This document shows, piece after piece, positions 6,813 to 22,156 of a stretch of DNA of 32,814 nucleotides. Source of the DNA: Bacteroidota bacterium (GTDB taxonomy: Bacteria; Bacteroidota; Bacteroidia; NS11-12g; UBA955); the NCBI GenBank assembly GCA_037975865.1, contig JBANFU010000127.1:1-32814 (forward strand). Reading direction: 5' to 3'. Within the stretch, counting starts at the first letter, position 1, and each line of letters opens with the position of its first letter. The notes below the pieces were generated by a model. It made no database searches, was not told the DNA's origin, and worked only from the letters and a program-made list of their open reading frames with translations. The position numbers and the translations under genes are program-made.

Positions 6813-7666
6813 GATACTACTTTCGTTTTAAAACTGATGTCCAGCGACATCACACTGTGGGTAAGCGATCCCAAAGAAATGAAATCAACCCCTGTTTCTG
6901 CGTAGGACCGCAAATTGCCCAAATGAATACCCCCTGAGGCCTCGGTTTCACACCGTCCCGCGATTTCTTTCACCGCCACCACACACTGCTCCGGTGTAAA
7001 ATTATCGAGCATCACACGCTGAACACCGCCCAAAGCCATCACCTCCCTCACTTCGTCCATGTTTCGGGTTTCCACTTCGATGCCCAACGAGAGTCCCTGA
7101 GCTTTCAAATAGGTGTGCGTGCGATTCACCGCCGCCGTTATGCCTCCCGCCGAATCGTTGTGGTTGTCTTTCAACATCACCATATCGTAGAGTCCAATGC
7201 GATGATTCTTCGCGCCGCCCATCGTCACCGCCCACTTCTCCAAAGCCCTGAGACCTGGCGTGGTTTTGCGTGTATCCAAAATCGTCGTGCCCGTGCCCTC
7301 CACCAACTTCACCGCCTGATAAGCCTGGGTGGCCACACCCGATAAGCGCTGCATGAAGTTCAACATCAACCGCTCACCGGCCAATAACGCATGTACCCGG
7401 CCTTTCACCGCAGCAAGCTGGGTTCCGGCCGACAAATAATCGCCATCTTGTGCCATTGCCTCCCAAGAGATTTCGGGATCCAGCCGACGTAAAATCACTT
7501 GGCCCAACGCCAACCCGGCAACCACACCCTCCTGCTTGAGTAACAGGCGCGACTCACCCATCGTACCCTCCGGAATCGATGCCAAACTGCTGTGATCGCC
7601 CCCGCCAATGTCCTCAGCCAGACAGCGATCAATCAAATCCAATATCTCGGCGCTCTCGAAATTCAT
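6809..7666 (-). CDS. nadC: Nicotinate-nucleotide pyrophosphorylase (quinolinate phosphoribosyltransferase)
   Basis: Motifs EDIGGGD, ERLMLN, DTRKTTPG, HRIGLYD, LKDNH, EVE, MLDN, EASGG. Start reassigned to the ATG at 7666 (TGATG overlap with the upstream stop). Confidence 0.96.
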   Translation of the reverse strand: MNFESAEILDLIDRCLAEDIGGGDHSSLASIPEGTMGESRLLLKQEGVVAGLALGQVILRRLDPEISWEAMAQDGDYLSAGTQLAAVKGRVHALLAGERLMLNFMQRLSGVATQAYQAVKLVEGTGTTILDTRKTTPGLRALEKWAVTMGGAKNHRIGLYDMVMLKDNHNDSAGGITAAVNRTHTYLKAQGLSLGIEVETRNMDEVREVMALGGVQRVMLDNFTPEQCVVAVKEIAGRCETEASGGIHLGNLRSYAETGVDFISLGSLTHSVMSLDISFKTKVVS

Positions 7667-9885
7667 CAATTCACCATCACCGTTGTCACCGCCTGCTGCG
7701 TAGCGCCGTGAATCAACACCAAATACTGTCCGGCCGACCATCCCTTCACATCCAAGGACATGCTACCGCTTTGACTTTTGCCTTCAAATACGGTACGCTC
7801 GTAAAAGTCGACCACGGTCACTTTTACTTCGCTGCCCTTGAAATTTGAGAGATCAATGCGCATCACATCCGAACTGGGATTGGGGTAAATATTGGCAGTG
7901 ACCACCGACAAAGGCTTGCTTGCAATGGTGGGTCCGCCACAGGCTGTTCCACCACTCACGTATTTCATCGTGGAGAAATCGATAAAACAAGCCCATTCTG
8001 GATGATCCACAAACGGGTTACGGTTTTTCTGTACAGAGGCCACATACTCATGGCGAGCAATCTCCCATCCATTGGGAGGGAACTGTTTGCTCCAACGCTT
8101 CAACACGTTCTGGTCTTGGTTCATCCCCAAAAACTCATTGGCTGTGGGAATGGTAAACGGAGCCCCAGCACGGTTGTAAGTGGCGCAAATGTAAAAGTTG
8201 GAACGACTCAACGCACCCTTGGCGAAATCGCGGGGTTCGTAAGCAAATCCACCCGCAGAATCGGTACCAAATTTTCCACCGTAGAAGTTCATGGTCACGG
8301 TCTTCAAGTTGTTCATGGGATAGTTGCTACGCACGGCATTACCCTTGTTCTGATGCACCAAGTACAACAAATACAAATCGCTGTAATTGGCACTATCCTG
8401 ACTCGCCTCACCCATCCAAGAATAAGGATAAGAGTGTTCGCGACTCAAGTAATTGGGGTCGTTCACATCAAAGAAAAACGGCGGCGTAAACACATAGGGG
8501 TAGCCGGTGTAAAAGCAATTGATGACTTTTTTGCCGTCGGTGGTATCGCGGGCATCAAAATTTGAGGCCATGGTAGCGCCGAAGTTGCTATAATAAACCT
8601 GGAAATGGGGACGAACAATGCCACGCAATTTTGACACCAACAACGTATCGGCGGAGGTCAAAGAGCCGTAATAACTCCCTGGATTGAGTCCTGGCGTGGT
8701 GTATTCCAAGGTACTCGCTGAGGTGCTGAAGTAATTGACATAAGTGTCGTAACCGTTGTAGGCATAGGCTTTCACGTAGTATTTAGTGTCGCCCCAGATG
8801 TTATCAAAATTCACATTCGCCAGAGCTCCAGCATGCATGATACGGGCGCCACCAAGGTATTCACCGCGCTGGTAAGCCACCCCATCGGTAGGGGTTGCCG
8901 TGATGGGCGAAGTACTCAACATCACCAAATACCCATCGGCACTGGAAGCAGTTATTCCCAACACCGATTTCCAAGCCAAATTGCTCACCAAATTCAGGGC
9001 CCCTGGCGCAGATGTTGGCTCGGTGGCCAGACTGCCACGGATGGCATATACATTCACATTGAAGGGCAACTGCAAACTGTCGTTGCTCAAAATACCCAAG
9101 GTGGCTTTCAGAGATCCGCTGGTGACATTCTGATTCACATCAATGGTAAGCGTGGTGGATTCACCGGCTTTCACGGTAACAGGGAAAGACTGTGTGGTGG
9201 TAAAATCAGCGGCATTCGTGCCTGATTTTTGCAATCCAGACAAGGTAAGATCACCCACAGTGCTGTTGTTTTTGATGGTCAAATCAAACGAGTTGGCATT
9301 GCCAACACGGATTTCGTTGCCATTGATTAGGGTTTTTCCAGCATAATCTACTTTGATCTCTGGTTTTGCCCCGCCTTTGCCGGGACGTACTTCGATGTCG
9401 TCGATGGCCAAGTTATACCCCGATGTTTTCGATGTGAAAATCAAGCGAGCGTAGCGAGCGGTGCTTCCCACCTGGGCAAACAATGGCTTGGTTCCCATGG
9501 GCATATCCGTATCCACGAATTTCTTCACGGAAGTCCAAGTGCTGCCGTCAGCACTCGCCTCCACATCAAAAGTTCCCTTCCAGGCCGTTACACCCGAAGC
9601 GCCCGTTCCCGAAGCGTAAAACCACAGCGTATCTGCCGTTCCTGTCCAATTGATTTTAATCCACTCCCCCGTAACATCCAACCGGATGGCCGCGGGTGTA
9701 CTCTTTACCAAATTGGCCGACGTATAAACGAAAGTACCTGAAGTACCTTGATTCAACGTAAAACCTGTTGGTGCTCCCGCAGGATCGTTACAATTCCAAA
9801 AGGCCGGCAATGTAGCCTGCGAAAATGCCATACCCACGCTGCTAACCAAGGCTAAGGCAAATCCATATAGTTTTTTCATGTTCAT
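7666..9885 (-). CDS. T9SS-secreted multidomain endonuclease I (EndA/Vvn-type His-Me nuclease)
   Basis: Signal peptide, then beta-rich N-terminal modules (jelly-roll-like, Ig-like, FN3-like). Catalytic region has SREHSYPYSW, NAVRSNYP, EPRDFAKG, QKNRNPFVDHPEW. Type-A CTD IYPNPSS...GQYLVLI at the C-terminus. Confidence 0.88.
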   Translation of the reverse strand: MNMKKLYGFALALVSSVGMAFSQATLPAFWNCNDPAGAPTGFTLNQGTSGTFVYTSANLVKSTPAAIRLDVTGEWIKINWTGTADTLWFYASGTGASGVTAWKGTFDVEASADGSTWTSVKKFVDTDMPMGTKPLFAQVGSTARYARLIFTSKTSGYNLAIDDIEVRPGKGGAKPEIKVDYAGKTLINGNEIRVGNANSFDLTIKNNSTVGDLTLSGLQKSGTNAADFTTTQSFPVTVKAGESTTLTIDVNQNVTSGSLKATLGILSNDSLQLPFNVNVYAIRGSLATEPTSAPGALNLVSNLAWKSVLGITASSADGYLVMLSTSPITATPTDGVAYQRGEYLGGARIMHAGALANVNFDNIWGDTKYYVKAYAYNGYDTYVNYFSTSASTLEYTTPGLNPGSYYGSLTSADTLLVSKLRGIVRPHFQVYYSNFGATMASNFDARDTTDGKKVINCFYTGYPYVFTPPFFFDVNDPNYLSREHSYPYSWMGEASQDSANYSDLYLLYLVHQNKGNAVRSNYPMNNLKTVTMNFYGGKFGTDSAGGFAYEPRDFAKGALSRSNFYICATYNRAGAPFTIPTANEFLGMNQDQNVLKRWSKQFPPNGWEIARHEYVASVQKNRNPFVDHPEWACFIDFSTMKYVSGGTACGGPTIASKPLSVVTANIYPNPSSDVMRIDLSNFKGSEVKVTVVDFYERTVFEGKSQSGSMSLDVKGWSAGQYLVLIHGATQQAVTTVMVN

Positions 9886-9900
9886 ATTTTCTGTTCGATA

Positions 9901-12609
9901 TTAATAGGTAATCCGAATACCGGTGGTAAAACGCAACCCCGGTGAAATAAAGACTTCCAAATTCTTGGGGTTGAATGTATTGATGGGATTGCCATCCACA
10001 TTGCGATGCTGTCCGTCTGAGATGTAAATGTTGTTCGTTACGTTGTTCACCATGCCGTAAATCTGCACCTTCATGCCGCCCTTCATGGTCCACTTATAAC
10101 CACCCGTCAAATTCATGTACCAGTAACTCGGTAATCGGAACGATTCCTGTCCTTTGTATTTTCCTGTCAAAGCCGTAGGATCAAAATCCGCATAGTGCTT
10201 GGCAAAATGGATGTACTGGGCAGTGAAATAAGCCCCCTTCAAATACGTGGGCTCCCAACGCATCAAAATCGCCACCTGTTTTTGTGCCGCATCGCCCACA
10301 TGAACCCCCGTCGCATCAAAATCTACCTTGGCAATGCTGTCGCCCAAATCGTTGCGAACAATCACCTCCGAACCCGAATTCCAAATCCAATCGCCCAAAC
10401 TCAAACTACCCTCCAAGGTGATACCGTCGCCCGCCCGAAACGAAGACTGCAATTCTGCCCCCATATGCCTTGCACCCAAGCCATTGATGTTGAAACTGTA
10501 GTTGTTGCCGTCCAAATCGGTGAAGGTCGACAAGAAATCCACCGGTTTGTTCATCCAAAGAGTATAGTATGCATTGAAGTTTAAAGCCAATCGCTTCGAT
10601 TTGTAGCCCGAGCCACCCTCCACCGCCATCACCCGCTCATTGCGGATGTCGCGCACCTGCACATTGCGGTTGTCAAATACATTGCTAAATCGGGTGGGAC
10701 GGTTCAAATAACCCACGTTGCCAAACACGTTCAATTTCCGACTGATGTTGTGATTCACCCCCGTCTTCAACGTGAAACCCTTGCGCTGTACCCAAGCCGT
10801 TTTCTGTCCGTACTGACTGTCTAAGTTCAACTTGAAATAATCGATCCGTTGCAACCAAGTGTTCGAAACACTCGCATTCACAAAAGCCGTTGTCCGATTT
10901 TTGCTGTATTCCAACTCCCCAAACATCCCCGCCCATCGCACCAAACCATCGTTGTTATAACCAAAAATATCGCCACTGCGGTACATGTGCTTGGCATCGA
11001 AAGCGGGATTCTTTTCGGACTGACTGGGGATGAAATAATCTCCGCCCAACAAGTTATAACCCTCGCGGTAATGCCTTCCGCGGTATGTGCGCAAATCAAT
11101 GCCACCGGTGAACGACCACAAATTACTCAACTTGTGCTGGGTGGTATTCAACAAACCGTACCAATTGTGGTTATTCACAGCACGCTGCAAAATCCCCGCC
11201 GATTTGTTCTCCGTCAGAGAATATTTGGGGTCTACCGGCGTAGTGAAATCACTGCCCGATGAGTTCAAGAAATAGATTCCTTGAAAATCGTACTGACCAT
11301 AATTCTGCGGCAACTGTGGGATTTTCAACGTGCTGTTGGAACTTACCCCGCCGCCACGACCGTAAGACGCATATGCGGTTGTGGTAATCAACGTCTTCTT
11401 CGACAAAGCCCAGTCGTGCTTCACGTAAAACTGCGGTTTGTGGAACATGTTCTCCCGCTCGTTCAAAGCGTAACGGCGCGACCACATCGTATCTGTTTTG
11501 TCCGCACTTACCTTGGCCTCATTCAAATAGCCCCAATGTTGGTTATAGCGATTGCCTTGATTATAAGCCATGCGCGGCAACACGGTGTCAATGCCCAACT
11601 CCTGCGCCATCGCCCTGTCGTACATCGAAAGTCGAGCCCGAAAACTGCGCTGACCATGGCTCTGTGGTGCTCCAACACCCACAAAACTGAGGGTGTGCGA
11701 TCCATGTGACTTGGTCTTCCACTGTTTTTCAGCCTTACCAAAATAGGCATACATGTCATCGTATAGATAATCAACGTATCCGGCACTCTGCCGCTTGGTA
11801 ACACTCAACAAAAAACCCCAACCACCCTTGAGGCGACCGCTGTTGTAATTCATCGAGAACTGCTCGTATTTGCTGTCGCCCATTTCCACACTGGCTTCCA
11901 AACGTGCCTGCTGTGAAATGCCTTTGGTGATGATATTCATGGTTCCTCCTACCGCGGGGTTGGCGATGCGCGATGATCCGAGACCTCGCTGAACTTGGGT
12001 CAGAGCAGTTACCCCGCCCAATCCAAACCAGTTGCTCCAGTACACCTGACCGTTTTCCATGTCGTTCACGGGAATACCATCTACCATCACGGCTATGTTG
12101 CGCTGACTGAATCCCCGAATGCTGATGCGCGCATCACCGGCACCTCCCCCTTGATTGGTGGCGTAGACGCCCGGTGTTTGGTTCAGCAGCAAGGGCAAAT
12201 CCGTACTACCCAATCGCTCAGCAATGTCTTTCCCTGTAAAATTGGAATAGGCCACCGGCGTTTTTCGATCTTTCGCCACACTGGCCGTAATTTGAACCGC
12301 CTGCATGGCCGCACTTTGATTGTCGAGCCGAAAATTGACATCCGTAATCAAATTGCGATCAGCCTGTATCAACACAGTATCGTTATCAAAACCCTCCAAC
12401 TGCGCCACAAGCACATACTCACCCATGGGCAAAACCAAGGTGTAACTACCATCTCTTCCTGAAAGGGCCGACTGATTTCGGGTGCTTATTTTGGCGCCCT
12501 CAAGTAATTCACCACTGATGGCGTCAACCACCTTACCTTTCACAGTGACCTGGGCTTTTGCCGTCAAAGACAACGTCAGACCCAAAACCAACAGGATGAT
12601 GCTGCGCAT
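9901..12609 (-). CDS. TonB-dependent outer-membrane receptor (non-SusC type)
   Basis: Signal peptide, CarboxypepD_reg-like N-domain (VKGKVVDAISGELLEGA), plug domain (TPGVY, ISIRGF, VMVDGIP, QVQRGLGSS), beta-barrel, and C-terminal aromatic residue (GIRITY). Confidence 0.93.
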   Translation of the reverse strand: MRSIILLVLGLTLSLTAKAQVTVKGKVVDAISGELLEGAKISTRNQSALSGRDGSYTLVLPMGEYVLVAQLEGFDNDTVLIQADRNLITDVNFRLDNQSAAMQAVQITASVAKDRKTPVAYSNFTGKDIAERLGSTDLPLLLNQTPGVYATNQGGGAGDARISIRGFSQRNIAVMVDGIPVNDMENGQVYWSNWFGLGGVTALTQVQRGLGSSRIANPAVGGTMNIITKGISQQARLEASVEMGDSKYEQFSMNYNSGRLKGGWGFLLSVTKRQSAGYVDYLYDDMYAYFGKAEKQWKTKSHGSHTLSFVGVGAPQSHGQRSFRARLSMYDRAMAQELGIDTVLPRMAYNQGNRYNQHWGYLNEAKVSADKTDTMWSRRYALNERENMFHKPQFYVKHDWALSKKTLITTTAYASYGRGGGVSSNSTLKIPQLPQNYGQYDFQGIYFLNSSGSDFTTPVDPKYSLTENKSAGILQRAVNNHNWYGLLNTTQHKLSNLWSFTGGIDLRTYRGRHYREGYNLLGGDYFIPSQSEKNPAFDAKHMYRSGDIFGYNNDGLVRWAGMFGELEYSKNRTTAFVNASVSNTWLQRIDYFKLNLDSQYGQKTAWVQRKGFTLKTGVNHNISRKLNVFGNVGYLNRPTRFSNVFDNRNVQVRDIRNERVMAVEGGSGYKSKRLALNFNAYYTLWMNKPVDFLSTFTDLDGNNYSFNINGLGARHMGAELQSSFRAGDGITLEGSLSLGDWIWNSGSEVIVRNDLGDSIAKVDFDATGVHVGDAAQKQVAILMRWEPTYLKGAYFTAQYIHFAKHYADFDPTALTGKYKGQESFRLPSYWYMNLTGGYKWTMKGGMKVQIYGMVNNVTNNIYISDGQHRNVDGNPINTFNPKNLEVFISPGLRFTTGIRITY

Positions 12610-13556
12610 TATTTGATCAATTTTGCCGAAGCCTTAGCGCCTTTTTGGCCGATAAACTCCAAAGTGTAAACCCCTGCAGGCAAATGAGCTACATGCAGTG
12701 CATACTGCGACATGTCGTCCATTCCCACATGGTCATAGGTTACCGAAACACGCTGACCGGCAGCATTCAAACAAATCAATTGAGAAAGTTCAAATGGCAA
12801 GAAAACAGCAGCCGAGGTAACTGCGGGGTTTGGATAAACCGCCACCTGAGAAATTACAGGCGTTTTCACAGCAGCTGAAGGACCTTGGGTACACAAGCAC
12901 GTGTGAAAGCCCAAAGAATCAAACATATCACGGGGATTCAAAACCCACTCCAATTTGGGATTGAATTCCAACGGATTTTTGGCAACACCCGTCATTACGC
13001 TGTCTTTACGAATCAACGTTTTGTCTAGCGTGTACCATGTACCTGTACCCGTGTATGGGGGTTTGTCGCTCCAAGCCGGACTCGGGCGTTCGCCAATTTT
13101 TCCAAAAATATCAACGGGCACCCATTTTCCGGTGGCATCATTGTATTTGTCCAACGACATGGCATCATCTCCGTTAAAACTCATGCTAAAACTGGTGTTG
13201 TAGTCCTTACTCAAAAACAAATCCGCCTTCAAACGCAAAGACAGAACAACGGGCGTGTCCTGCCCGATTTTCGTAGTATCCGTGCGATCGATCACCAATA
13301 CAGCAACATCTTTAGGTTGTAATGTGCCAGAGAGGATGTCCGACATCTGAGCCGTCCAAGCAGCAGAACCATTCTGCCAACGGGTTACGCGGTATTTGCT
13401 TAAATCTACAGCATTGCTGGTTGGATTATAAATTTCCAACGCTTTGTTGTTACGTGAACCCTCTACATATTCTGAAATGAATAGTTCATTGCACTGCGCT
13501 TTGGCTTGGAAAATGCCCATCAAGGCGATGCAAAAAATGCCAATCGTTTTCTTCAT
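12609..13556 (-). CDS. T9SS-secreted lamin-tail-domain (LTD) protein with no recognisable catalytic domain
   Basis: Signal peptide MKKTIG...AKAQ. LTD motifs ELFISEYVEGSRNNKALEIYNPT and SFNGDDA, like the N-terminus of ExeM/NucH nucleases. Type-A CTD VYPNP...LPAGVYTL...KLIK. Start reassigned to the ATG at 13556. Confidence 0.85.
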   Translation of the reverse strand: MKKTIGIFCIALMGIFQAKAQCNELFISEYVEGSRNNKALEIYNPTSNAVDLSKYRVTRWQNGSAAWTAQMSDILSGTLQPKDVAVLVIDRTDTTKIGQDTPVVLSLRLKADLFLSKDYNTSFSMSFNGDDAMSLDKYNDATGKWVPVDIFGKIGERPSPAWSDKPPYTGTGTWYTLDKTLIRKDSVMTGVAKNPLEFNPKLEWVLNPRDMFDSLGFHTCLCTQGPSAAVKTPVISQVAVYPNPAVTSAAVFLPFELSQLICLNAAGQRVSVTYDHVGMDDMSQYALHVAHLPAGVYTLEFIGQKGAKASAKLIK

Positions 13557-13649
13557 GATGCAAAAATCACAAAAAAGAGGCAAAAACAGTTGTTTTTAGC
13601 AATAAATAAACGACAAATTAGCCAGTGAATCCGCAATTTTGTAACCCAT
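13557..13649. promoter_or_regulatory. Divergent promoter region of the nuclease/nucleotidase locus
   Basis: Near-consensus Bacteroidota -7 boxes on each strand: GATTTTTG (minus, 13561-13568) and CAATTTTG (plus, 13634-13641). Inverted repeat AAAAACA-GT-TGTTTTT at 13582-13597. Confidence 0.5.
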
Positions 13650-14528
13650 ATGGTCACTCGCCTCAATCAAAAGACTGTCAGTGTTCCCAGCAGCCTCAAT
13701 TCGTTGGCTTGGATTGGTAGTATCTTATTGATTTTCAGCAGTTGTTTTTCCGCGCAAACCACGAACAGCATCCGTCCCAGTTTCCAAGTGGTGCAAAACC
13801 AAGCGGTGTTAGATTCCTTGCCCGATGACAGTGAGAGTTTGGCTCTGATCAGTCCCTATAAAATCAACATGGAAGCGCAGATGTCGGCCTACATCGCCAC
13901 CATCGATTCTCCGTTTTCCAACGCATTTTTTGTAGGCAATTTGGGTCGGTTGGCGGCCGACTACATGTACATCGCGGGCAACAAAATCAGTCAGCAACAG
14001 TTTGGGGTTCCGTGCCACTTTGCCATCAGCAACAATGGCGGTTTCCGAACCGGTCTTTATCCCGGACCTGTAACCATGAAACAATTGTTTGAAGTAATGC
14101 CGTTTGATAATGAACTGGTTTTACTTCAACTTCCCGGAAACTATGTAGACAGCCTTTTCCAATACATCGCCCAACTTCAAGGCACTCCCGCAGCCGGTTT
14201 TTTGATGTCGTACAGCAAAGGAAATTCGCGAAAAGAAAATCGCTATCAGACCCTGAAAATCAATGCTCAGCCCGCCAACAGCATCAAAGAGTTGTTAAGC
14301 CCGCAGTATACTCAATCGTTCGATTCGCGACGTGATTACCTCATTGCCGTGAATTCCTATATGGCCGTGGGGGGCGATGGGTTCACAATGCTCAAACACG
14401 CGAAGCGCATTCACTACACCGGCATCAACTTGCGCAACGTCATTGCTGAACAACTCAGAGCAGAATACGAAACCCATCATTTCATCGATCCTCGAAAAGA
14501 AATTCGCATCTACCATGAGCCTCAATAG
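13650..14528 (+). CDS. 5'-nucleotidase C-terminal (substrate-binding) domain, probable lipoprotein
   Basis: Hydrophobic segment ending in LLIFSSC. 5_nucleotid_C motifs LGRLAAD, NNGGFR, EVMPFDN, YMAVGGDGF. Confidence 0.88.
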   Translation: MVTRLNQKTVSVPSSLNSLAWIGSILLIFSSCFSAQTTNSIRPSFQVVQNQAVLDSLPDDSESLALISPYKINMEAQMSAYIATIDSPFSNAFFVGNLGRLAADYMYIAGNKISQQQFGVPCHFAISNNGGFRTGLYPGPVTMKQLFEVMPFDNELVLLQLPGNYVDSLFQYIAQLQGTPAAGFLMSYSKGNSRKENRYQTLKINAQPANSIKELLSPQYTQSFDSRRDYLIAVNSYMAVGGDGFTMLKHAKRIHYTGINLRNVIAEQLRAEYETHHFIDPRKEIRIYHEPQ

Positions 14529-15414
14529 AAAACAGTTTTTACAACAAATGGCTGTTTTGGCGGCGGCCTCAGCATTACCCCTCGATGCCATGGGCAAAGG
14601 TCTTTTCTATGCCTCGGACGCGGCATACCTCAAAAAACGAGAACCGCTCGATTTGCTCGTTTTACATACCAATGACCTCCACTCTCGAATCGACCCGTTT
14701 CCCGCCAACCACCCCTTGGCCGGAAAAGGTGGAATCGCCAATTTGGCCACGCTGATTCGCGAACACCGTGCCCAACACACCCACATTCTGCTACTCGATT
14801 GCGGTGATGTATTCCAAGGCACCCCCTATTTTAATCTGTTTGGCGGACAAGTGGAATACCAATGGATGCAAAACATGGGCTATCATGCCACCACCATGGG
14901 TAACCACGATTTCGATAACGGCATAGAACACCTGGCCAATATGTTAGAGAAAAATCCGGCCATACCCATGATCAATTGCAATTACAATCTCACGAAAACC
15001 CGCCTCAAAGAATTCGTGAAACCATACAGAGTCTTGGAAATCGGCGGTAAAACCATCGGGATCACCGGCGTAGGCATCAGCCCCGAAAATCTCATTTTGG
15101 AGAGAATGATTCCCGGTTTGGTCTACCAAGATCCCGTTGCCTCCGTGCAAAAAACCGTAGATTATCTCCGAAATCAAGCCCACTGCGATGCCGTTTTTGT
15201 AATTTCTCACTTGGGATATTCTTACGACACAGACAAAATCGACGACCTGAAACTGGCAGCCAAAACCCACGGAATTACTGCCATCGTAGGCGGACATACC
15301 CACACCTTTTTGGAAAAAGCCACCGAAGTAACCAACACAAAAGGACAAACGGTTTTGGTAAATCAGGCGGGTTGGGGTGGATTGATGCTCGGACAACTCC
15401 GGTTTAGCCTTTAA
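14515..15414 (+). CDS. 5'-nucleotidase catalytic (calcineurin-like metallophosphoesterase) domain with a Tat-like signal
   Basis: N-terminus MSLNRKQFLQQMAVLAAA. Metal-binding motifs HTNDLHS, DCGD, GNHDFD, ISHLG, GGHTH. Start reassigned to the ATG at 14515, overlapping the upstream gene by 14 bp. Confidence 0.92.
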   Translation: MSLNRKQFLQQMAVLAAASALPLDAMGKGLFYASDAAYLKKREPLDLLVLHTNDLHSRIDPFPANHPLAGKGGIANLATLIREHRAQHTHILLLDCGDVFQGTPYFNLFGGQVEYQWMQNMGYHATTMGNHDFDNGIEHLANMLEKNPAIPMINCNYNLTKTRLKEFVKPYRVLEIGGKTIGITGVGISPENLILERMIPGLVYQDPVASVQKTVDYLRNQAHCDAVFVISHLGYSYDTDKIDDLKLAAKTHGITAIVGGHTHTFLEKATEVTNTKGQTVLVNQAGWGGLMLGQLRFSL

Positions 15415-18845: not shown

Positions 18846-19742
18846 TTACGGGGTAATGGTTGCCTCAACCCAATCATAGGAGCCGAGTGCCCCAACAGCA
18901 TCGTTACTCCAGTTGGAATACAACAAGACGGGCTCAGCAAATGGGTTATCCGAAACCTGTAAATCACGCAAATAACGCTCCTTGTATCCTTCGTCCATCA
19001 CCCAAAATGTACCCGCACACTCGTGTAAAATCAAAGGGTCTGTTGGCGTTCCACCTCCCGGACCCATGTCCATGAAAATTCGGTCGTTGAAGAAATACCG
19101 CAAAGTATCGGCCGACTTGCCCTCCGCAATGCCTTCATTGCTGAAAAATAGCTCACTGCCATAAAAATCGCCCTGACCGTCTTCCATCACCATGTTGAAT
19201 TTGGGCGCGTAAAAAAAGCCCGTCTTGGTTGTGCCCGATTTCAATTCCATCGCCACATTCACGCTCTGACCGCCCCAATTGTTGGCCTCCAATTTGCCAA
19301 TGCGATATTGACCAATTAACAAATCGGTTTCTTTCAATGCGGGTGGAACCGTGGTCTTGGAAAAATAGGTTGACCCATCCTTGAGTACCACATCCACACG
19401 ATATTCATGTTCGTTCACTATAGGCAAGGCAAAAGCACGTATGCGATACAACATGATCGCAGAATCAAACGGAATCCTCACTGATTTACCCACGGTGATA
19501 TCCGTGATTGTTACGGTAGCATCTCCAATGCGAGGCACTTCATAATCCTGTGGACCGAAATACGGTTTGGTGTAACCCAACTCCACCGTAATATTCGGGT
19601 CCTTCGGTGATAAATAGCAGGTAATTGCGGTCCGTTTTTTATACGTGGGCAAATCCACTGTAGCATCTTGGTCATAACACCCCGTGGCCAAAATCACCAC
19701 CGACAACACACCACCAATCCAACGAAAAATATTGTTCATCAT
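18846..19742 (-). CDS. DUF4249-like lipoprotein
   Basis: Lipobox-like ILATGC. Motifs DATVTITD, TTVP, DNPFAEPVLLYSN, GALG. Lies directly downstream of a TBDR. Confidence 0.78.
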   Translation of the reverse strand: MMNNIFRWIGGVLSVVILATGCYDQDATVDLPTYKKRTAITCYLSPKDPNITVELGYTKPYFGPQDYEVPRIGDATVTITDITVGKSVRIPFDSAIMLYRIRAFALPIVNEHEYRVDVVLKDGSTYFSKTTVPPALKETDLLIGQYRIGKLEANNWGGQSVNVAMELKSGTTKTGFFYAPKFNMVMEDGQGDFYGSELFFSNEGIAEGKSADTLRYFFNDRIFMDMGPGGGTPTDPLILHECAGTFWVMDEGYKERYLRDLQVSDNPFAEPVLLYSNWSNDAVGALGSYDWVEATITP

Positions 19743-19750
19743 GACTTTGC

Positions 19751-22156
19751 TTAACGAAATTTATAAGTCCAACTTAGAGACGGAATCATTGGAAACAGCG
19801 TGGCCTTTTTCAAGGTCCGTACCGTTCCAGCGTCATTCAACTGACCATAGTAAAAGAAGGGATTGTAACGATTGTAGGCGTTGTAAAAACTCAATTCCCA
19901 CGTTTGTATACCCCGTTTTTTCTCTTTCTTGAACTGCAAGCCCACATCCAAACGATGATAAGCCTCCATCCTGAAACTGTTGCGCTTGCCGTAATCGATC
20001 AGCTCGTTGTTAAAAAACCCAGCCGCCGCATCCCAGACTTCAGGAAACGAACCCATGTAATGGCCCGAACCCCGCAAATATCCCTGTGGCATCGTGATCG
20101 CATTGCCGGTGCCATAAACCCACGTTGCAGACGCCGTGAACAATTTACTCAATCGATAAATGCAAACAATAGAAGCATCATGCCTTCTATCGTACTTGGC
20201 GTAGTATTTCAACCCCTGATTAACCTCGTCGAACTGCAATTGCGTCCAACTCAATGTATAGCCTATCCATCCACTCAACTTGCCTACCTGCTTTTGCAAG
20301 AACACTTCTGCTCCGTAGCTCCAGCCCAATCCACTGGTAACTTGGCTTTCCCATGCTTTATCATTGGTGGAAACATTGGGATTGAAGAAGTCATCGCCCA
20401 ATAAAAACAAAGCCCCCTCTTTGTAGGTGATTACGTTGCTCATGGTCTTGTAATACCCTTCTACGCTCAACGAAAATCCCTTATTAAAATCCTTGGCAAT
20501 GCCCGTGGCCAACTGTTGACTTTGCATCGGTTTCACATTGGCCGTTGCCGGAACCCATAAATCAGTTGGCAATCCAATGCCCGTACTGCTCAACAAATGA
20601 ATGTATTGATTCATCAGAGCATAGCTCGCCTTCAAAGCCAAATCCTTCCGGATATTGTAGGCCATACTCAAACGAGGCTCGGGGTTCAATACCTGTTTAT
20701 TCTCTACCACATAATGACTCAATCGCAAACCGGGATAAAAGTTCCATGCCCCCTCCCGCCATTGATCCTCCACATACACCCCACTTTCATAGGTGTTGAT
20801 GACCTTGATTTTGCGGTTGAAATTAAAATTTGAACCCACTTTCAAGACGATGGCACTCGGACTGAATTGATGGTTAATCGTTGAAAACCCAGCGCGAATC
20901 ATGTGCTTGGGATTGGGCCTGAAATCCACGTCGTACTTCACCCCGTAATCGTTGATGGTACTGGAATATCCCAACTCGAACTGACTTGTGTCGTTTTCCT
21001 TTTGTAGGATGTTAATGCTCAAATCATAGTGACTGTAAATCAATGCGGTATTCGCAAATGTCCTGGGGTTGAACTGATGATTCCATCGACCCGTCAATGT
21101 CTTATTTCCCCAGCCAAAATTGGTTTTAAATTGCGATTTTGCCTGTTTGTCGTTCAGGTAAAATTTATCACGACCAAAATACCCGGATACGTATAGTTTG
21201 TCTTTGTTCGACAGGATATAATTGGCCTTGGCGTTCATGTCGTAGAAGTAATACCCTGCATTCGCGCCATTGGTACTTGCCATAATCAAAGGCTGAACCA
21301 ACGCATCCAAATACGTTCGACGTCCAGATATCATGAATGAACTTTTTCCTTTGACGATGGGCCCCTCAAAGACCGCACGAGAACTAATCACGCCAACACC
21401 CACCTCGCCAGCAAATTTCTTGTTATTGCCCTCCTTCATGTTCATGTCGATCACACTCGACAACCGTCCACCGTACCGGGAAGGGAACCCGCCTTTAACC
21501 AACTCCACACTGCGCAAGGCATCGCCGTTGAACAAAGAGAAAAATCCAAATAAATGACTGGCGTTGTATACAATCGCTTCATCTAAAACAATCAAATTCT
21601 GGTCGGGACCCCCGCCTCGAACGTAAATGCCCGACTGTCCTTCCCCGCCCTTCTGCACGCCGGGCATCAACTGTATCACTTTCAACACGTCTTTTTCGCC
21701 CAAAAGAGCCGGAATTTCTTTGATCTGCTGCACCGGAATGTCGATCCTGCTCATATCGGCACGATCCGCGATGGTCGTCTTTTTCGCCTTAATTTCAACT
21801 GCACCCATCGACTCAACAACTTGGATAGCCGACAATTCGATGTTTACTGCTGTATCCGCTTTGGCCGTCCAATACACACTGTCGGCATAAAAACCGGGAA
21901 ATCGAAAATACACCCACTGGGCTTGTCCGATAGGAATGGTGATGGAATAAAACCCGTAGCTGTTGGATAACGTTCTGCTGGCATTGGGTGTGGCAGCAAT
22001 CACCACGCTGCCCAACATTTCACCGCTGCTTTTTTCGCGCAGATAGCCACTGATACTGGCCTTGGAACTGGGCGATTGGGCCTGGATTGGATGGGCTGAA
22101 CTCACCAATAAGCCAAACACAAGGAACCAAGATTTGCTTAACAATCGACAGATCAT
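19751..22156 (-). CDS. TonB-dependent receptor (DUF4249-associated type)
   Basis: Motifs PALLGEKDVLKVIQLMPGV, YVRGGGPDQNL, HLFGFFS, KGGFPSRYGGRLSSV, PTDLW, YHRLD, and C-terminal WTYKFR. Confidence 0.93.
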   Translation of the reverse strand: MICRLLSKSWFLVFGLLVSSAHPIQAQSPSSKASISGYLREKSSGEMLGSVVIAATPNASRTLSNSYGFYSITIPIGQAQWVYFRFPGFYADSVYWTAKADTAVNIELSAIQVVESMGAVEIKAKKTTIADRADMSRIDIPVQQIKEIPALLGEKDVLKVIQLMPGVQKGGEGQSGIYVRGGGPDQNLIVLDEAIVYNASHLFGFFSLFNGDALRSVELVKGGFPSRYGGRLSSVIDMNMKEGNNKKFAGEVGVGVISSRAVFEGPIVKGKSSFMISGRRTYLDALVQPLIMASTNGANAGYYFYDMNAKANYILSNKDKLYVSGYFGRDKFYLNDKQAKSQFKTNFGWGNKTLTGRWNHQFNPRTFANTALIYSHYDLSINILQKENDTSQFELGYSSTINDYGVKYDVDFRPNPKHMIRAGFSTINHQFSPSAIVLKVGSNFNFNRKIKVINTYESGVYVEDQWREGAWNFYPGLRLSHYVVENKQVLNPEPRLSMAYNIRKDLALKASYALMNQYIHLLSSTGIGLPTDLWVPATANVKPMQSQQLATGIAKDFNKGFSLSVEGYYKTMSNVITYKEGALFLLGDDFFNPNVSTNDKAWESQVTSGLGWSYGAEVFLQKQVGKLSGWIGYTLSWTQLQFDEVNQGLKYYAKYDRRHDASIVCIYRLSKLFTASATWVYGTGNAITMPQGYLRGSGHYMGSFPEVWDAAAGFFNNELIDYGKRNSFRMEAYHRLDVGLQFKKEKKRGIQTWELSFYNAYNRYNPFFYYGQLNDAGTVRTLKKATLFPMIPSLSWTYKFR

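What the first reader, a model, noticed from the sequence alone, without database searches (positions are those of the whole stretch)
7666..15414. Candidate extracellular DNA/RNA utilisation locus: secreted LTD binder, TonB receptor, secreted endonuclease and split 5'-nucleotidase
Seen: five exported proteins around one 93-bp divergent promoter region. Leftward are a T9SS LTD-only protein, a TBDR and a T9SS endonuclease I. Rightward are the two halves of a 5'-nucleotidase. Known: LTDs are accessory domains of extracellular nucleases such as ExeM, endonuclease I yields oligonucleotides, TBDRs import oligomers in Bacteroidota PULs, and 5'-nucleotidases release nucleosides and phosphate. Inference: a PUL-like bind, cut, import and dephosphorylate pathway for environmental nucleic acid as a P/N/nucleoside source. 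It uses T9SS cargo and a non-SusC receptor with no SusD. I do not know of a characterised locus with this architecture, but could not search for one.
Basis: partly seen in the sequence, partly recalled or inferred. Interest (0 to 1): 0.85.

Follow-up and report, generated by a model that had tools for sequence, protein, structure and literature searches.

The report
Secreted-nuclease DNA-scavenging and import locus
A freshwater Bacteroidota genome carries a conserved gene cluster that most likely binds and cuts environmental DNA or RNA at the cell surface, imports the pieces through a TonB-powered outer-membrane channel and strips their phosphate in the periplasm; it is an environmental cousin of the DNA-utilisation loci described in gut Bacteroides in 2025.

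Summary
All five genes sit at the stated coordinates around a 93-bp divergent spacer. They are a T9SS endonuclease I, a non-SusC TonB receptor, a lamin-tail-domain (LTD) protein, and the two halves of a 5'-nucleotidase.

- An LTD gene lies directly upstream in 73 of 77 evaluable loci.
- A T9SS nuclease lies beside the pair in 63 of 68. It is endonuclease I in 39 and a DUF5689-PLD enzyme in 24.
- The split 5'-nucleotidase accompanies 19 of 25 endonuclease-I loci and 0 of 16 PLD loci. It occurs in two different gene orders.

A complex prediction supports the LTD protein docking on the receptor (score 0.66, best control 0.00).

The concept is no longer new. ddbABCDEF of Bacteroides thetaiotaomicron (PNAS 2025) is a characterised DNA-utilisation locus with a distantly related receptor. 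Here an LTD T9SS cargo stands where the DUF5689 lipoprotein stands in ddb, and a periplasmic 5'-nucleotidase is added. None of my six literature searches returned a description of this variant.

Three earlier notes of this scan reached the same reading of the LTD-receptor-nuclease trio on other DNA. The substrate, the imported species and the regulation are all inferred.

The parts
7666..9885 (-). T9SS-secreted endonuclease I, 739 aa. Order of parts: Sec leader; N-terminal beta-rich modules (weak F5/8-type-C-like hit at 95-157, choice-of-anchor D at 190-270); Endonuclease_1 domain at about 480-630; type A sorting tail at 666-737.
   Evidence: Pfam PF04231 at 83.8 bits and PF18962 at 43.4 bits. 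NCBIfam TIGR04183 at 27.4 bits (cut-off 23) and choice_anch_D at 44.4 bits (cut-off 45). It aligns to solved endonuclease I chains 2pu3, 1oup and 1ouo over the C-terminal half of the domain. It is the only PF04231 match in the assembly.
9901..12609 (-). TonB-dependent outer-membrane receptor, 902 aa, not SusC-like. Order of parts: leader, CarboxypepD_reg domain, plug, barrel.
   Evidence: Pfam Plug at 53.9 bits and CarboxypepD_reg at 40.7 bits. NCBIfam gave only sub-threshold hits to BtuB- and FecA-type models. There are more than 7,700 homologues in the protein collection. The family profile scores 245 bits against a DUF5689-linked receptor, versus 29-53 bits for the other receptors of this genome.
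12609..13556 (-). LTD protein, 315 aa. Order of parts: Sec leader, mature end starting Q-C, LTD-like beta-sandwich (about 22-207), linker, T9SS-type C-terminal beta-sandwich (239-314). It is the predicted surface partner of the receptor.
   Evidence: Pfam LTD at 46.7 bits; Por_Secre_tail at 22.5 bits, below cut-off. It matches the N-terminal module of the ExeM model with E 4.6e-16. The AF2 model has mean pLDDT 89.6. It is adjacent to the receptor in 73 of 77 loci. Complex score 0.66 against a best control of 0.00.
13557..13649 (.). 93-bp divergent spacer between the LTD operon and the 5'-nucleotidase pair.
   Evidence: Sequence read directly. Within the genus a T-rich element of the form TTTTTTGTGATTTTTGCA ends 2-4 nt before the LTD ATG. 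I read this as a Bacteroidota-type -7 box from recalled knowledge. No regulator site was identified.
13650..14528 (+). C-terminal (substrate-binding) domain of a 5'-nucleotidase, encoded as a separate lipoprotein of 292 aa.
   Evidence: PF02872 at 77 bits. It aligns to residues 372-498 of the Thermus 5'-nucleotidase 2z1a, with the NGGFR, PFDN and GGDGF stretches matched. The lipobox cysteine is conserved in orthologues.
14515..15414 (+). N-terminal (dimetal catalytic) domain of a 5'-nucleotidase, encoded as a separate Tat-exported protein of 299 aa. It overlaps the preceding gene by 14 nt.
   Evidence: PF00149 at 63.6 bits. It aligns to residues 5-230 of solved 5'-nucleotidases (E 2e-38), with the NDLH, GD, GNHDFD, SHLG and GGHTH stretches matched. 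The twin-arginine leader is seen in orthologues. TatC is present in the genome.

Best explanation
This is a nucleic-acid utilisation locus built from T9SS cargo.

1. The LTD protein is exported by the T9SS. It sits on the extracellular loops of the TonB-dependent receptor as its substrate-capturing partner. It fills the place that SusD holds in glycan loci and the DUF5689 protein DdbD holds in ddb loci.
2. The T9SS endonuclease I cuts extracellular DNA or RNA into short 5'-phosphorylated pieces.
3. The receptor imports oligo- or mononucleotides into the periplasm.
4. In the periplasm a two-piece 5'-nucleotidase removes the phosphate. One piece is a Tat-exported catalytic half and the other a lipoprotein substrate-binding half.
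5. Nucleosides enter through a CNT-type transporter encoded elsewhere in the genome, and phosphate is taken up.

Shown here: the domain identities, the operon packing, the conserved co-occurrence, the nuclease swapping, and the in-silico docking.

Inferred: DNA binding by the LTD, the size of the imported species, assembly of the two enzyme halves, and the physiological purpose (phosphorus, nitrogen or nucleoside supply).
For: **Domains and export signals:**

**Tight operon:** TAATG overlap and a 15-nt gap.

**Conservation near the window:** the five genes are conserved through the genus and into two other genera of the family, one of them with different flanking genes (L037).

**Conservation across 80 species-level loci:**
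- LTD adjacent in 73 of 77.
- A T9SS nuclease adjacent in 63 of 68. This is made up of endonuclease I 35 + 3 + 1 partial, DUF5689-PLD 23 downstream, and 1 upstream.
- The 5'-nucleotidase pair in 19 of 25 endonuclease-I loci, in two gene orders.

**Receptor tree:** the nuclease type changes 7 times by parsimony, at least 3 of them forced by well-supported branches. The 5'-nucleotidase state changes 4 times. Linkage has therefore been kept or regained repeatedly.

**Complex prediction:** score 0.66 against a best of 3 controls of 0.00. That mark was reached by 58 of 80 solved complexes and 2 of 110 mismatched pairs. The runs share at least 96% of contacts and the partner's pLDDT is at least 85. 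My own alignments were used, so the calibration holds only roughly.

**Receptor relationship:** the family profile scores 245 bits over its full length against a receptor followed by a DUF5689 gene, versus 29-53 bits for other receptors of this genome.

**Rest of the genome:** SprA, TatC and a CNT nucleoside transporter are present.

**Precedents in print:**
- The ddbABCDEF knockout abolishes DNA depletion (PMC12478041; Results read).
- LTD-bearing EndA-like nucleases of Flavobacterium johnsoniae are induced by phosphate depletion (PMC8115612; passages).
- One of those nucleases is a T9SS substrate (PMC10994853; passage).

**Expression hint:** contigs from 4 of 4 riverine RNA libraries cover the locus. 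One contig runs from inside the nuclease gene through the receptor and LTD genes in 3 of the 4.
Against: - No experiment bears on this family. DNA binding by the stand-alone LTD protein is assumed from the LTD's presence in nucleases such as ExeM.
- Foldseek of the LTD model found only generic Ig-like folds with TM at most 0.20, so it gives no structural link to a DNA binder.
- The LTD protein's T9SS tail is below both curated cut-offs.
- No periplasmic exonuclease or phosphodiesterase is in the locus to turn oligonucleotides into 5'-mononucleotides.
- The 5'-nucleotidase pair is absent from all 16 PLD-type loci with room to judge. It also exists away from the locus in one PLD-type genome. It is therefore an accessory, not a core part.
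- Three Hymenobacter receptors of the family stand alone.
- No Pho-type or other regulator site was found.
- B. thetaiotaomicron uses DNA poorly as a sole C, N or P source.
- RNA-library contigs cannot exclude carried-over DNA, and no silent control stretch was available.
- The 80 loci are related to one another, so the counts overstate independence.
Confidence: 0.7

Rival explanations
1. This is a DNA-uptake machine for natural transformation. The LTD-receptor pair would bring intact DNA across the outer membrane for ComEC-dependent import, as the distantly related receptor/DUF5689 pair does in Riemerella anatipestifer.
For: RA0C_RS04915 (a receptor with a CarboxypepD_reg domain) and RA0C_RS04920 (DUF5689) are essential for transformation (PMC8459023; passages). 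The ddb authors relate their locus to that system. The receptor family here is distantly related to a DUF5689-linked receptor. ComEC is present in this genome.
Against: The locus carries a secreted non-specific endonuclease and, in 19 of 25 comparable loci, a periplasmic 5'-nucleotidase. Both destroy rather than preserve incoming DNA. ComEC is found in 10 of 14 control genomes, whether competent or not. No other competence gene lies in the neighbourhoods examined.
Confidence: 0.1
2. The receptor imports small phosphorylated compounds rather than nucleic-acid fragments, for example free nucleotides, NAD or other organophosphates. The LTD protein would bind something else, and the nuclease would serve another end such as biofilm remodelling or escape from DNA traps.
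For: The periplasmic enzyme belongs to the UshA/NadN/CD73 family, whose members act on mononucleotides, UDP-sugars and NAD. nadC lies next to the cluster in this family of genomes. Lidbury et al. propose low-phosphate-induced receptors as organophosphate importers in general (PMC8115612; passages).
Against: The nadC adjacency is lost in L037 and in all co-directional loci, while the cluster itself persists. The one partner always kept is a secreted nuclease of one of two unrelated families. In many of these the nuclease carries DUF5689, the domain of the proposed DNA-binding partner DdbD.
Confidence: 0.15
3. The grouping is only inherited gene order among relatives, with no shared function.
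For: Many of the 80 loci are kin. The flanking genes nadC, a thioredoxin-like gene and rluD are also conserved within the family.
Against: The cluster survives changes of flanks, of gene order (divergent versus co-directional 5'-nucleotidase; PLD nuclease upstream in L084) and of nuclease family. This holds across loci whose record titles name Flavobacteriales, Crocinitomicaceae, Saprospiraceae, Bacteroidales and Lentimicrobiaceae. The upstream neighbours are unrelated housekeeping genes that differ between lineages.
Confidence: 0.03

Closest known systems
ddbABCDEF DNA-utilisation locus of Bacteroides thetaiotaomicron (Sharan et al., PNAS 2025, PMC12478041; abstract, Results and Discussion read)
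   Same: It is a PUL-like locus with secreted nucleases and a non-SusC TonB-dependent transporter, whose adjacent gene encodes the presumed substrate-binding partner. Its receptor has a CarboxypepD_reg domain and is distantly related. A DUF5689-linked receptor from a genome of the same family shares 22% identity over 804 residues with the receptor here. It scores 245 bits against this family's profile.
   Different: - The partner here is an LTD protein with a T9SS tail, encoded upstream. In ddb it is a DUF5689 lipoprotein encoded downstream.
- The enzymes here are T9SS cargo rather than SPII lipoproteins.
- The nuclease here is endonuclease I (or DUF5689-PLD in sister loci).
- A split periplasmic 5'-nucleotidase is attached.
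- No DUF5689 match exists in this assembly, which is 86% complete.
- The paper's main text does not contain 'lamin', 'LTD', 'endonuclease', 'nucleotidase', 'type IX' or 'phospholipase'. Its supplements were not seen.
Riemerella anatipestifer outer-membrane DNA uptake pair RA0C_RS04915/RA0C_RS04920 (PMC8459023; passages read)
   Same: It pairs a receptor bearing a CarboxypepD_reg domain with an adjacent surface protein, and the pair handles extracellular DNA.
   Different: It serves natural transformation. Its partner carries DUF5689 and DUF5017, not an LTD. No 5'-nucleotidase is described with it.
Phosphate-starvation EndA1/EndA2 nucleases of Flavobacterium johnsoniae (Fjoh_4721/4723; PMC8115612 passages; NucA as T9SS substrate, PMC10994853 passage)
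   Same: They are long secreted endonuclease-I proteins of Bacteroidota associated with LTD domains and the T9SS.
   Different: The LTD there is fused inside the nuclease, and the genes are listed as 'orphan', without a receptor. Here the LTD is a separate gene glued to a receptor. Whether the locus here responds to phosphate is unknown.
SusC/SusD polysaccharide utilisation loci
   Same: The logic is the same: surface binding, surface cutting, TonB-dependent import and periplasmic finishing.
   Different: There is no SusC-type receptor model hit and no SusD gene. The substrate is nucleic acid, and the surface proteins travel by the T9SS.
UshA / CD73 / NadN 5'-nucleotidases
   Same: Both domains are present, with the conserved metal-binding and substrate-binding stretches.
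   Different: The domains are encoded as two genes in reversed order, C-domain first. Each has its own export route, lipoprotein and Tat.

Membership tests
ddb-type DNA-utilisation locus (PMC12478041) | DdbC-type TonB-dependent transporter as anchor | tested here: inconclusive
   No named DdbC sequence was available. A stand-in was used: a receptor followed by a DUF5689 gene in a genome of the same family (L127). It shares 22% identity over 804 aa. It scores 245 bits against this family's profile, versus 29-53 bits for other receptors of the own genome. This points to distant kinship, not orthology.
ddb-type DNA-utilisation locus (PMC12478041) | Adjacent DUF5689 partner (DdbD) | tested here: not met
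   There is no PF18942 match in the assembly, which is 86% complete. The adjacent gene encodes an LTD protein.
ddb-type DNA-utilisation locus (PMC12478041) | Secreted nuclease(s) in the locus | tested here: met
   Endonuclease_1 with a T9SS tail lies directly downstream of the receptor.
ddb-type DNA-utilisation locus (PMC12478041) | Locus required for depletion of exogenous DNA | not testable with these tools
   This needs a knockout in a cultured carrier.
Endonuclease I (PF04231; Vvn/EndA type) | Domain match above the curated cut-off | tested here: met
   83.8 bits against a cut-off of 25, covering profile positions 75-235 of 235.
Endonuclease I (PF04231; Vvn/EndA type) | Catalytic His and metal-binding Glu/Asn | tested here: inconclusive
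   The alignment to 2pu3 covers the N-x-x-RSN stretch, which is matched. An E-H pair in 'SREHSYP' lies upstream of the aligned part and was seen by eye only. The residue roles are recalled, not taken from a call.
UshA/CD73-type 5'-nucleotidase | Dimetal metallophosphoesterase motifs in the N-domain | tested here: met
   The NDLH, GD, GNHDFD, SHLG and GGHTH stretches align to solved 5'-nucleotidases with E 2e-38. The motif roles are recalled.
UshA/CD73-type 5'-nucleotidase | C-terminal substrate-binding domain | tested here: met
   PF02872 at 77 bits. It aligns to 2z1a residues 372-498.
UshA/CD73-type 5'-nucleotidase | Both domains on one polypeptide | tested here: not met
   There are two overlapping genes with the C-domain first. 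The same split is seen in all 19 loci that carry the pair.
SusC/SusD polysaccharide utilisation locus | SusC/RagA-type receptor with an adjacent SusD-like gene | tested here: not met
   There is no SusC/RagA model among the NCBIfam hits at E<=0.01. The flanking genes are the LTD protein and endonuclease I.
T9SS type A cargo | C-terminal sorting domain above cut-off, and a T9SS in the genome | tested here: met
   For the nuclease: PF18962 at 43.4 bits (cut-off 27) and TIGR04183 at 27.4 bits (cut-off 23). SprA is present.
T9SS type A cargo | The same, for the LTD protein | tested here: inconclusive
   PF18962 scores 22.5 bits (cut-off 27) and TIGR04183 scores 20.9 bits (cut-off 23). However, the P-N-P motif is invariant or nearly so in 65 homologues, and the AF2 model shows a seven-strand C-terminal sandwich.
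ExeM-type extracellular nuclease | Full-length match with a nuclease domain | tested here: not met
   Only the N-terminal LTD module matches: 58 bits against a cut-off of 1300, profile positions 21-179 of 884. The LTD protein has no catalytic domain.
Tat substrate | Twin-arginine leader and a Tat translocase | tested here: met
   Leaders of the form RR-x-F-[LIV] occur in most orthologues, and R-K in this genus. TatC scores 208 bits in the genome. Actual export was not tested.

The most novel reading that the evidence does not exclude
The LTD protein and the receptor would form a new kind of two-part outer-membrane nucleic-acid transporter. Its surface cap would be delivered by the type IX secretion system rather than as a lipoprotein. 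The cassette is widespread in uncultured freshwater and marine Bacteroidota and is combined with interchangeable secreted nucleases. The nuclease chemistry would decide whether a periplasmic 5'-nucleotidase is needed. Such a system would be a major, so far unrecognised route by which these bacteria recycle dissolved DNA and RNA phosphorus. In some lineages it could also be the outer-membrane door for natural transformation.
Probability: 0.45. Interest if true: 0.75.

Novelty: new variant of a known kind. Interest (0 to 1): 0.6.

Why it matters
Dissolved DNA and RNA are large pools of organic phosphorus and nitrogen in lakes, rivers and the sea, and Bacteroidota are among their main consumers. 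The only characterised Bacteroidota DNA-utilisation locus comes from gut Bacteroides and uses lipoproteins with a DUF5689 partner.

The cassette described here appears to be the environmental counterpart. More than 7,700 homologues of the receptor scored in the protein collection, although whether they carry the cassette was not examined. It gives three testable things:
- a receptor with a predicted partner;
- two alternative nucleases;
- a rule linking endonuclease I, but not the PLD nuclease, to a periplasmic 5'-nucleotidase.

It would also be the first case I know of in which a T9SS cargo is a fixed partner of a TonB-dependent transporter. That statement rests on recall and on the literature searches.

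Tried and rejected
- **Fold search.** Foldseek of the LTD model against the PDB gave only generic Ig-like matches, with TM at most 0.20, so it is uninformative.
- **Promoter and terminator scan.** The sigma-70 promoter and terminator scan found no more sites than shuffled sequence, and the model does not suit Bacteroidota.
- **Shared regulator site.** I printed 62 regions upstream of LTD genes and saw no common motif beyond a T-rich element near the start codon. One relative has a CTGTCAT-TG-CTGTCAC repeat, but it is not shared. No motif program was run.
- **Linked regulator.** The upstream neighbours are a DPP IV peptidase, Mfd, a PIF1 helicase and acetyl-CoA synthetase. None is a regulator.
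- **Purine auxotrophy.** I considered that the locus might feed a purine auxotroph. PurH is present in 25 of 25 genomes searched, including this one, so the idea was dropped.
- **Closest non-family receptors.** The receptors of G037 and G029 (29-31% identity) have no LTD or nuclease neighbours.
- **Notes of this scan.** Searches by place and by sequence returned nothing.
- **Literature.** Searches for 'lamin tail domain' with 'TonB-dependent', and for several term sets on nucleases, receptors and Bacteroidota, returned no paper on this cassette. One search looked up the Fjoh locus tags.
- **Expression level.** RNA-library contigs cannot rank genes by depth. The thinner cover over the 5'-nucleotidase genes is therefore not used as evidence.
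- **Tree labels.** L072 and L075 were labelled endonuclease-I type for the tree on weak partial hits (E 2e-05). The count of 7 changes is approximate for that reason.

Full report
**Observation**

The window holds the five genes at the coordinates given.

On the minus strand, in the order they are transcribed:
- An LTD protein at 12609-13556, 315 aa from the ATG at 13556.
- A TonB-dependent receptor at 9901-12609, 902 aa.
- An endonuclease I with a type A T9SS sorting tail at 7666-9885, 739 aa.

The LTD stop and the receptor start overlap as TAATG. The receptor stop is 15 nt from the nuclease start.

On the plus strand, 93 bp from the LTD start:
- A 5'-nucleotidase C-terminal domain gene at 13650-14528.
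- A metallophosphatase (5'-nucleotidase N-terminal domain) gene at 14515-15414, overlapping the previous gene by 14 nt.

The receptor has CarboxypepD_reg and Plug hits. It has no SusC/RagA model hit, and no SusD-like gene lies nearby.

The flanking genes are nadC, a thioredoxin-like gene and a pseudouridine synthase. The assembly is a 2.05-Mb, 278-contig genome estimated to be 86% complete.

**Export routes**

These were read by eye and from orthologues, because no signal-peptide predictor was run.
- The LTD protein has a Sec leader followed by Q-(D/N)-C at the mature end in 65 homologues.
- The C-domain half of the 5'-nucleotidase has a lipobox cysteine in all orthologues printed.
- The metallophosphatase half has a twin-arginine leader, RR in most orthologues and RK in this genus.
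- TatC and the T9SS translocon SprA are present in the genome.

**Is the grouping meaningful?**

Within the genus and two further genera of the same family, the five genes stay together. In one genus (L037) the flanks differ.

I then collected 80 loci, one per species genome, that encode relatives of the receptor at 34-97% identity. They were chosen by the receptor alone. I searched their six-frame ORFs with the window's proteins.
- **LTD gene.** An LTD gene lies immediately upstream on the same strand in 73 of the 77 loci with at least 900 bp upstream. The misses are three Hymenobacter loci and L056, where LTD genes lie 650 bp away.
- **Endonuclease I.** Of the 68 loci with at least 600 bp downstream, 35 have an endonuclease-I gene directly downstream.
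- **The other 33.** I scanned 27 of the remaining 33 with Pfam:
  - 23 have PLDc_2. A script finds two HKD motifs in each of those 23.
  - 21 have DUF5689.
  - 25 have the T9SS tail.
  - 3 have a divergent Endonuclease_1.
  - One member, L054, is cut by the contig end.
- **The six not scanned.**
  - L123 has a partial endonuclease-I hit.
  - L084 has the PLD nuclease upstream of the LTD gene instead.
  - L078 and L091 have too little sequence to judge.
  - Two Hymenobacter loci have no nuclease.

In total, a T9SS nuclease stands beside the LTD-receptor pair in 63 of 68 loci. Three are undetermined and two have none.

**The 5'-nucleotidase**

Both halves are present in 19 of 25 endonuclease-I-type loci with enough sequence on both sides, and in 0 of 16 PLD-type loci.
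- In 6 loci they are divergent, as in the window.
- In 13 loci they follow the nuclease on the same strand, giving LTD-receptor-nuclease-C-half-N-half.

On a FastTree of 65 receptors:
- The nuclease type changes 7 times by parsimony, at least 3 of them forced by well-supported branches.
- The 5'-nucleotidase state changes 4 times.
- Two rows were labelled on weak partial hits, so these counts are approximate.

One PLD-type genome has the split pair elsewhere, and two others have only fused forms. The pair is therefore a movable accessory, recruited specifically to endonuclease-I loci.

A possible reason is the chemistry of the cut ends: endonuclease I leaves 5'-phosphates, while some PLD-family nucleases leave 3'-phosphates. 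That is recalled knowledge and was not tested.

The two halves align to the N- and C-domains of solved 5'-nucleotidases, with the conserved stretches in place.

**The LTD protein as partner of the receptor**

Near-universal adjacency, with overlapping or abutting genes, suggested a physical pair.

AF2 gives a confident model with mean pLDDT 89.6. It has a beta-sandwich at 22-207 and a second sandwich at 239-314. Foldseek found only generic Ig-like folds.

A complex prediction used receptor residues 113-902 and LTD residues 22-230, each with a 65-row alignment.
- The scores were 0.69, 0.52 and 0.66, with a median of 0.66. The best of three controls scored 0.00.
- That mark was reached by 58 of 80 solved complexes and 2 of 110 mismatched pairs.
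- The runs agree in at least 96% of contacts, and the partner's pLDDT is at least 85.
- Because my own alignments were used, the calibration holds only roughly.
- The contacts fall on receptor segments 344-347, 426-472 and 527-539. I take these to be long extracellular loops, which is an inference.
- On the LTD protein the contacts fall on residues 62-70, 118-121, 144-159 and 194-197. These include the family's conserved N62, G63, Y119 and G155.

This supports binding but does not show it.

**What is known**

A full-text search led to Sharan et al., PNAS 2025 (PMC12478041). I read the abstract, Results and Discussion.
- ddbABCDEF of B. thetaiotaomicron encodes three nucleases, a TonB-dependent transporter DdbC and a DUF5689 protein DdbD. 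DdbD is predicted to cap DdbC and to resemble DNA-binding domains.
- Deleting the locus abolishes DNA depletion.
- The authors liken it to a PUL. They relate DdbCD to RA0C_RS04915/04920, which are essential for natural transformation in Riemerella anatipestifer (PMC8459023; passages).
- The main text contains none of 'lamin', 'LTD', 'endonuclease', 'nucleotidase', 'type IX' or 'phospholipase'.

Lidbury et al. (PMC8115612, passages; preprint 10.1101/719427, passages) report the following for Flavobacterium johnsoniae.
- It induces two long EndA-like nucleases with fn3, LTD and Endonuclease_1 domains under phosphate depletion. These are listed as orphans.
- It also induces several receptors, which the authors propose import organic phosphorus.

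One of those nucleases, NucA, was seen as a T9SS substrate (PMC10994853; passage).

Searches for 'lamin tail domain' with 'TonB-dependent', for DUF5689, and for other term sets found no description of the LTD-receptor cassette.

**Relation to ddb**

The own assembly has no DUF5689 match. A genome of the same family that lacks the LTD-linked receptor has a ddb-like locus instead (L127).
- A 939-aa receptor is followed by a double-DUF5689 protein and an LTD-bearing T9SS protein.
- Divergently transcribed from these are an EEP-family nuclease and a T9SS endonuclease I.

That receptor shares 22% identity with the window's receptor over 804 residues. It scores 245 bits over its full length against the family profile. 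The other receptors of the window's genome score 29-53 bits.

The two receptor families are thus distant kin within a group set apart from ordinary receptors. The same accessory domains (LTD, DUF5689, endonuclease I, T9SS tails) are shuffled among their loci.

I therefore class the finding as a new variant of a known kind, not a member of the ddb family. The defining DUF5689 partner was tested and is absent.

**Other context**
- The genome encodes a CNT-type nucleoside transporter, which would complete the route.
- It also encodes ComEC, so a role in transformation cannot be excluded.
- PurH is present in 25 of 25 genomes searched, so the locus does not serve a purine auxotroph.
- No regulator gene or shared operator was found.
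- Twenty-four public runs hold part of the stretch, 20 of them on record as RNA.
- In the 4 RNA-library runs I laid, all riverine, contigs about 97% alike cover the locus. Contigs run from 9453 (X2, X4) or 9893 (X3) to about 13540, across the nuclease, receptor and LTD genes. In X6 a contig runs from 10495 to 13516.
- These contigs show presence in RNA libraries. They do not show a single transcript, an expression level, or the absence of DNA carry-over.

**Earlier notes of this scan**

After reaching this reading I found three earlier follow-ups on other genomes: e1-3228428, e1-2359699 and e1-2266418. They describe the same LTD-receptor-endonuclease trio and name the same closest known system.

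They agree with my result and are not independent evidence. What this window adds:
- the linkage of the split 5'-nucleotidase;
- its restriction to endonuclease-I-type loci;
- the counts for the PLD alternative;
- the docking prediction with controls;
- the profile comparison with a DUF5689-linked receptor.

**Verdict**

The best explanation is a T9SS-based nucleic-acid capture, cutting, import and dephosphorylation locus, which I put at about 0.7. The main uncertainties are:
- what the LTD protein binds;
- what size of fragment the receptor imports;
- what the cell wants from it.

Interest is 0.6. The general idea was published in 2025, but this widespread environmental variant and its predicted T9SS-delivered receptor partner were not found in print by my searches.

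Noticed in passing
window 18846-22156 (-): There is a second TonB-dependent receptor (801 aa, Plug hit only), followed by a DUF4249 protein (298 aa). It is a separate receptor-plus-small-partner pair of unknown ligand, about 4 kb from the locus.
   Followed up: no
L127 1070-15143 (G023 contig C57): A genome of the same family lacks the LTD-linked receptor and has a ddb-like locus instead. A receptor (939 aa) is followed by a double-DUF5689 protein, an LTD-bearing T9SS protein and a 1384-aa T9SS protein. Divergent from these are an EEP-family nuclease and a T9SS endonuclease I.
   Followed up: partly
L128 414-7180 (G023 contig C57): A 1071-aa T9SS protein carrying a 5'-nucleotidase C-domain and a SusE-like domain lies about 1 kb from another receptor (843 aa). 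That receptor scores 211 bits against the LTD-linked receptor profile. This may be a third kind of nucleotide-related receptor locus.
   Followed up: no
L071 6987-10948 and L076 6626-10447: Some PLD-type loci carry both nucleases in series: LTD, receptor, DUF5689-PLD, then a short T9SS endonuclease I. In L071 the endonuclease I is split over two overlapping ORFs, which may be a frameshift or an assembly error.
   Followed up: no
L043 7181-8176 = L045 8957-9952: In one genome of the window's genus, the LTD gene reads as two adjacent ORFs separated by a stop. All four neighbouring genes are intact. This may be a sequencing error or a recent pseudogene.
   Followed up: no
L106, L107, L110 (Hymenobacter records): Receptors of the same family (about 36% identity) stand without any LTD or nuclease gene. 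Their neighbours are an RND efflux system, a methyltransferase-type DNA-binding protein and a histidine kinase.
   Followed up: partly
L038, L039 (G037, G029): The nearest receptors outside the LTD-linked group (29-31% identity, 640-654 bits against the profile) have no LTD or nuclease neighbour. They lie downstream of a beta-CASP/RMMBL ribonuclease-like gene and a small beta-barrel-like protein.
   Followed up: no
record titles of L051, L053, L059, L075, L118, L122: Several records with this T9SS-type cassette bear non-Bacteroidota names in their titles: Rhizobium, Thalassomonas, Parcubacteria, Comamonadaceae and Sphingomonadales. These are probably mislabelled or mis-binned assemblies.
   Followed up: no
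window 13557-13580 and homologous spacers: Within the genus a conserved T-rich element (TTTTTTGTGATTTTTGCA) ends only 2-4 nt before the LTD start codon. This suggests a very short or absent leader. RNA-library contigs from three runs end at 13539-13542, just inside the gene.
   Followed up: partly
window 14515-14560: The Tat leader of the metallophosphatase half reads N-R-K-Q-F-L in the window. Close relatives within the genus have R-K as well, and more distant orthologues have R-R.
   Followed up: no
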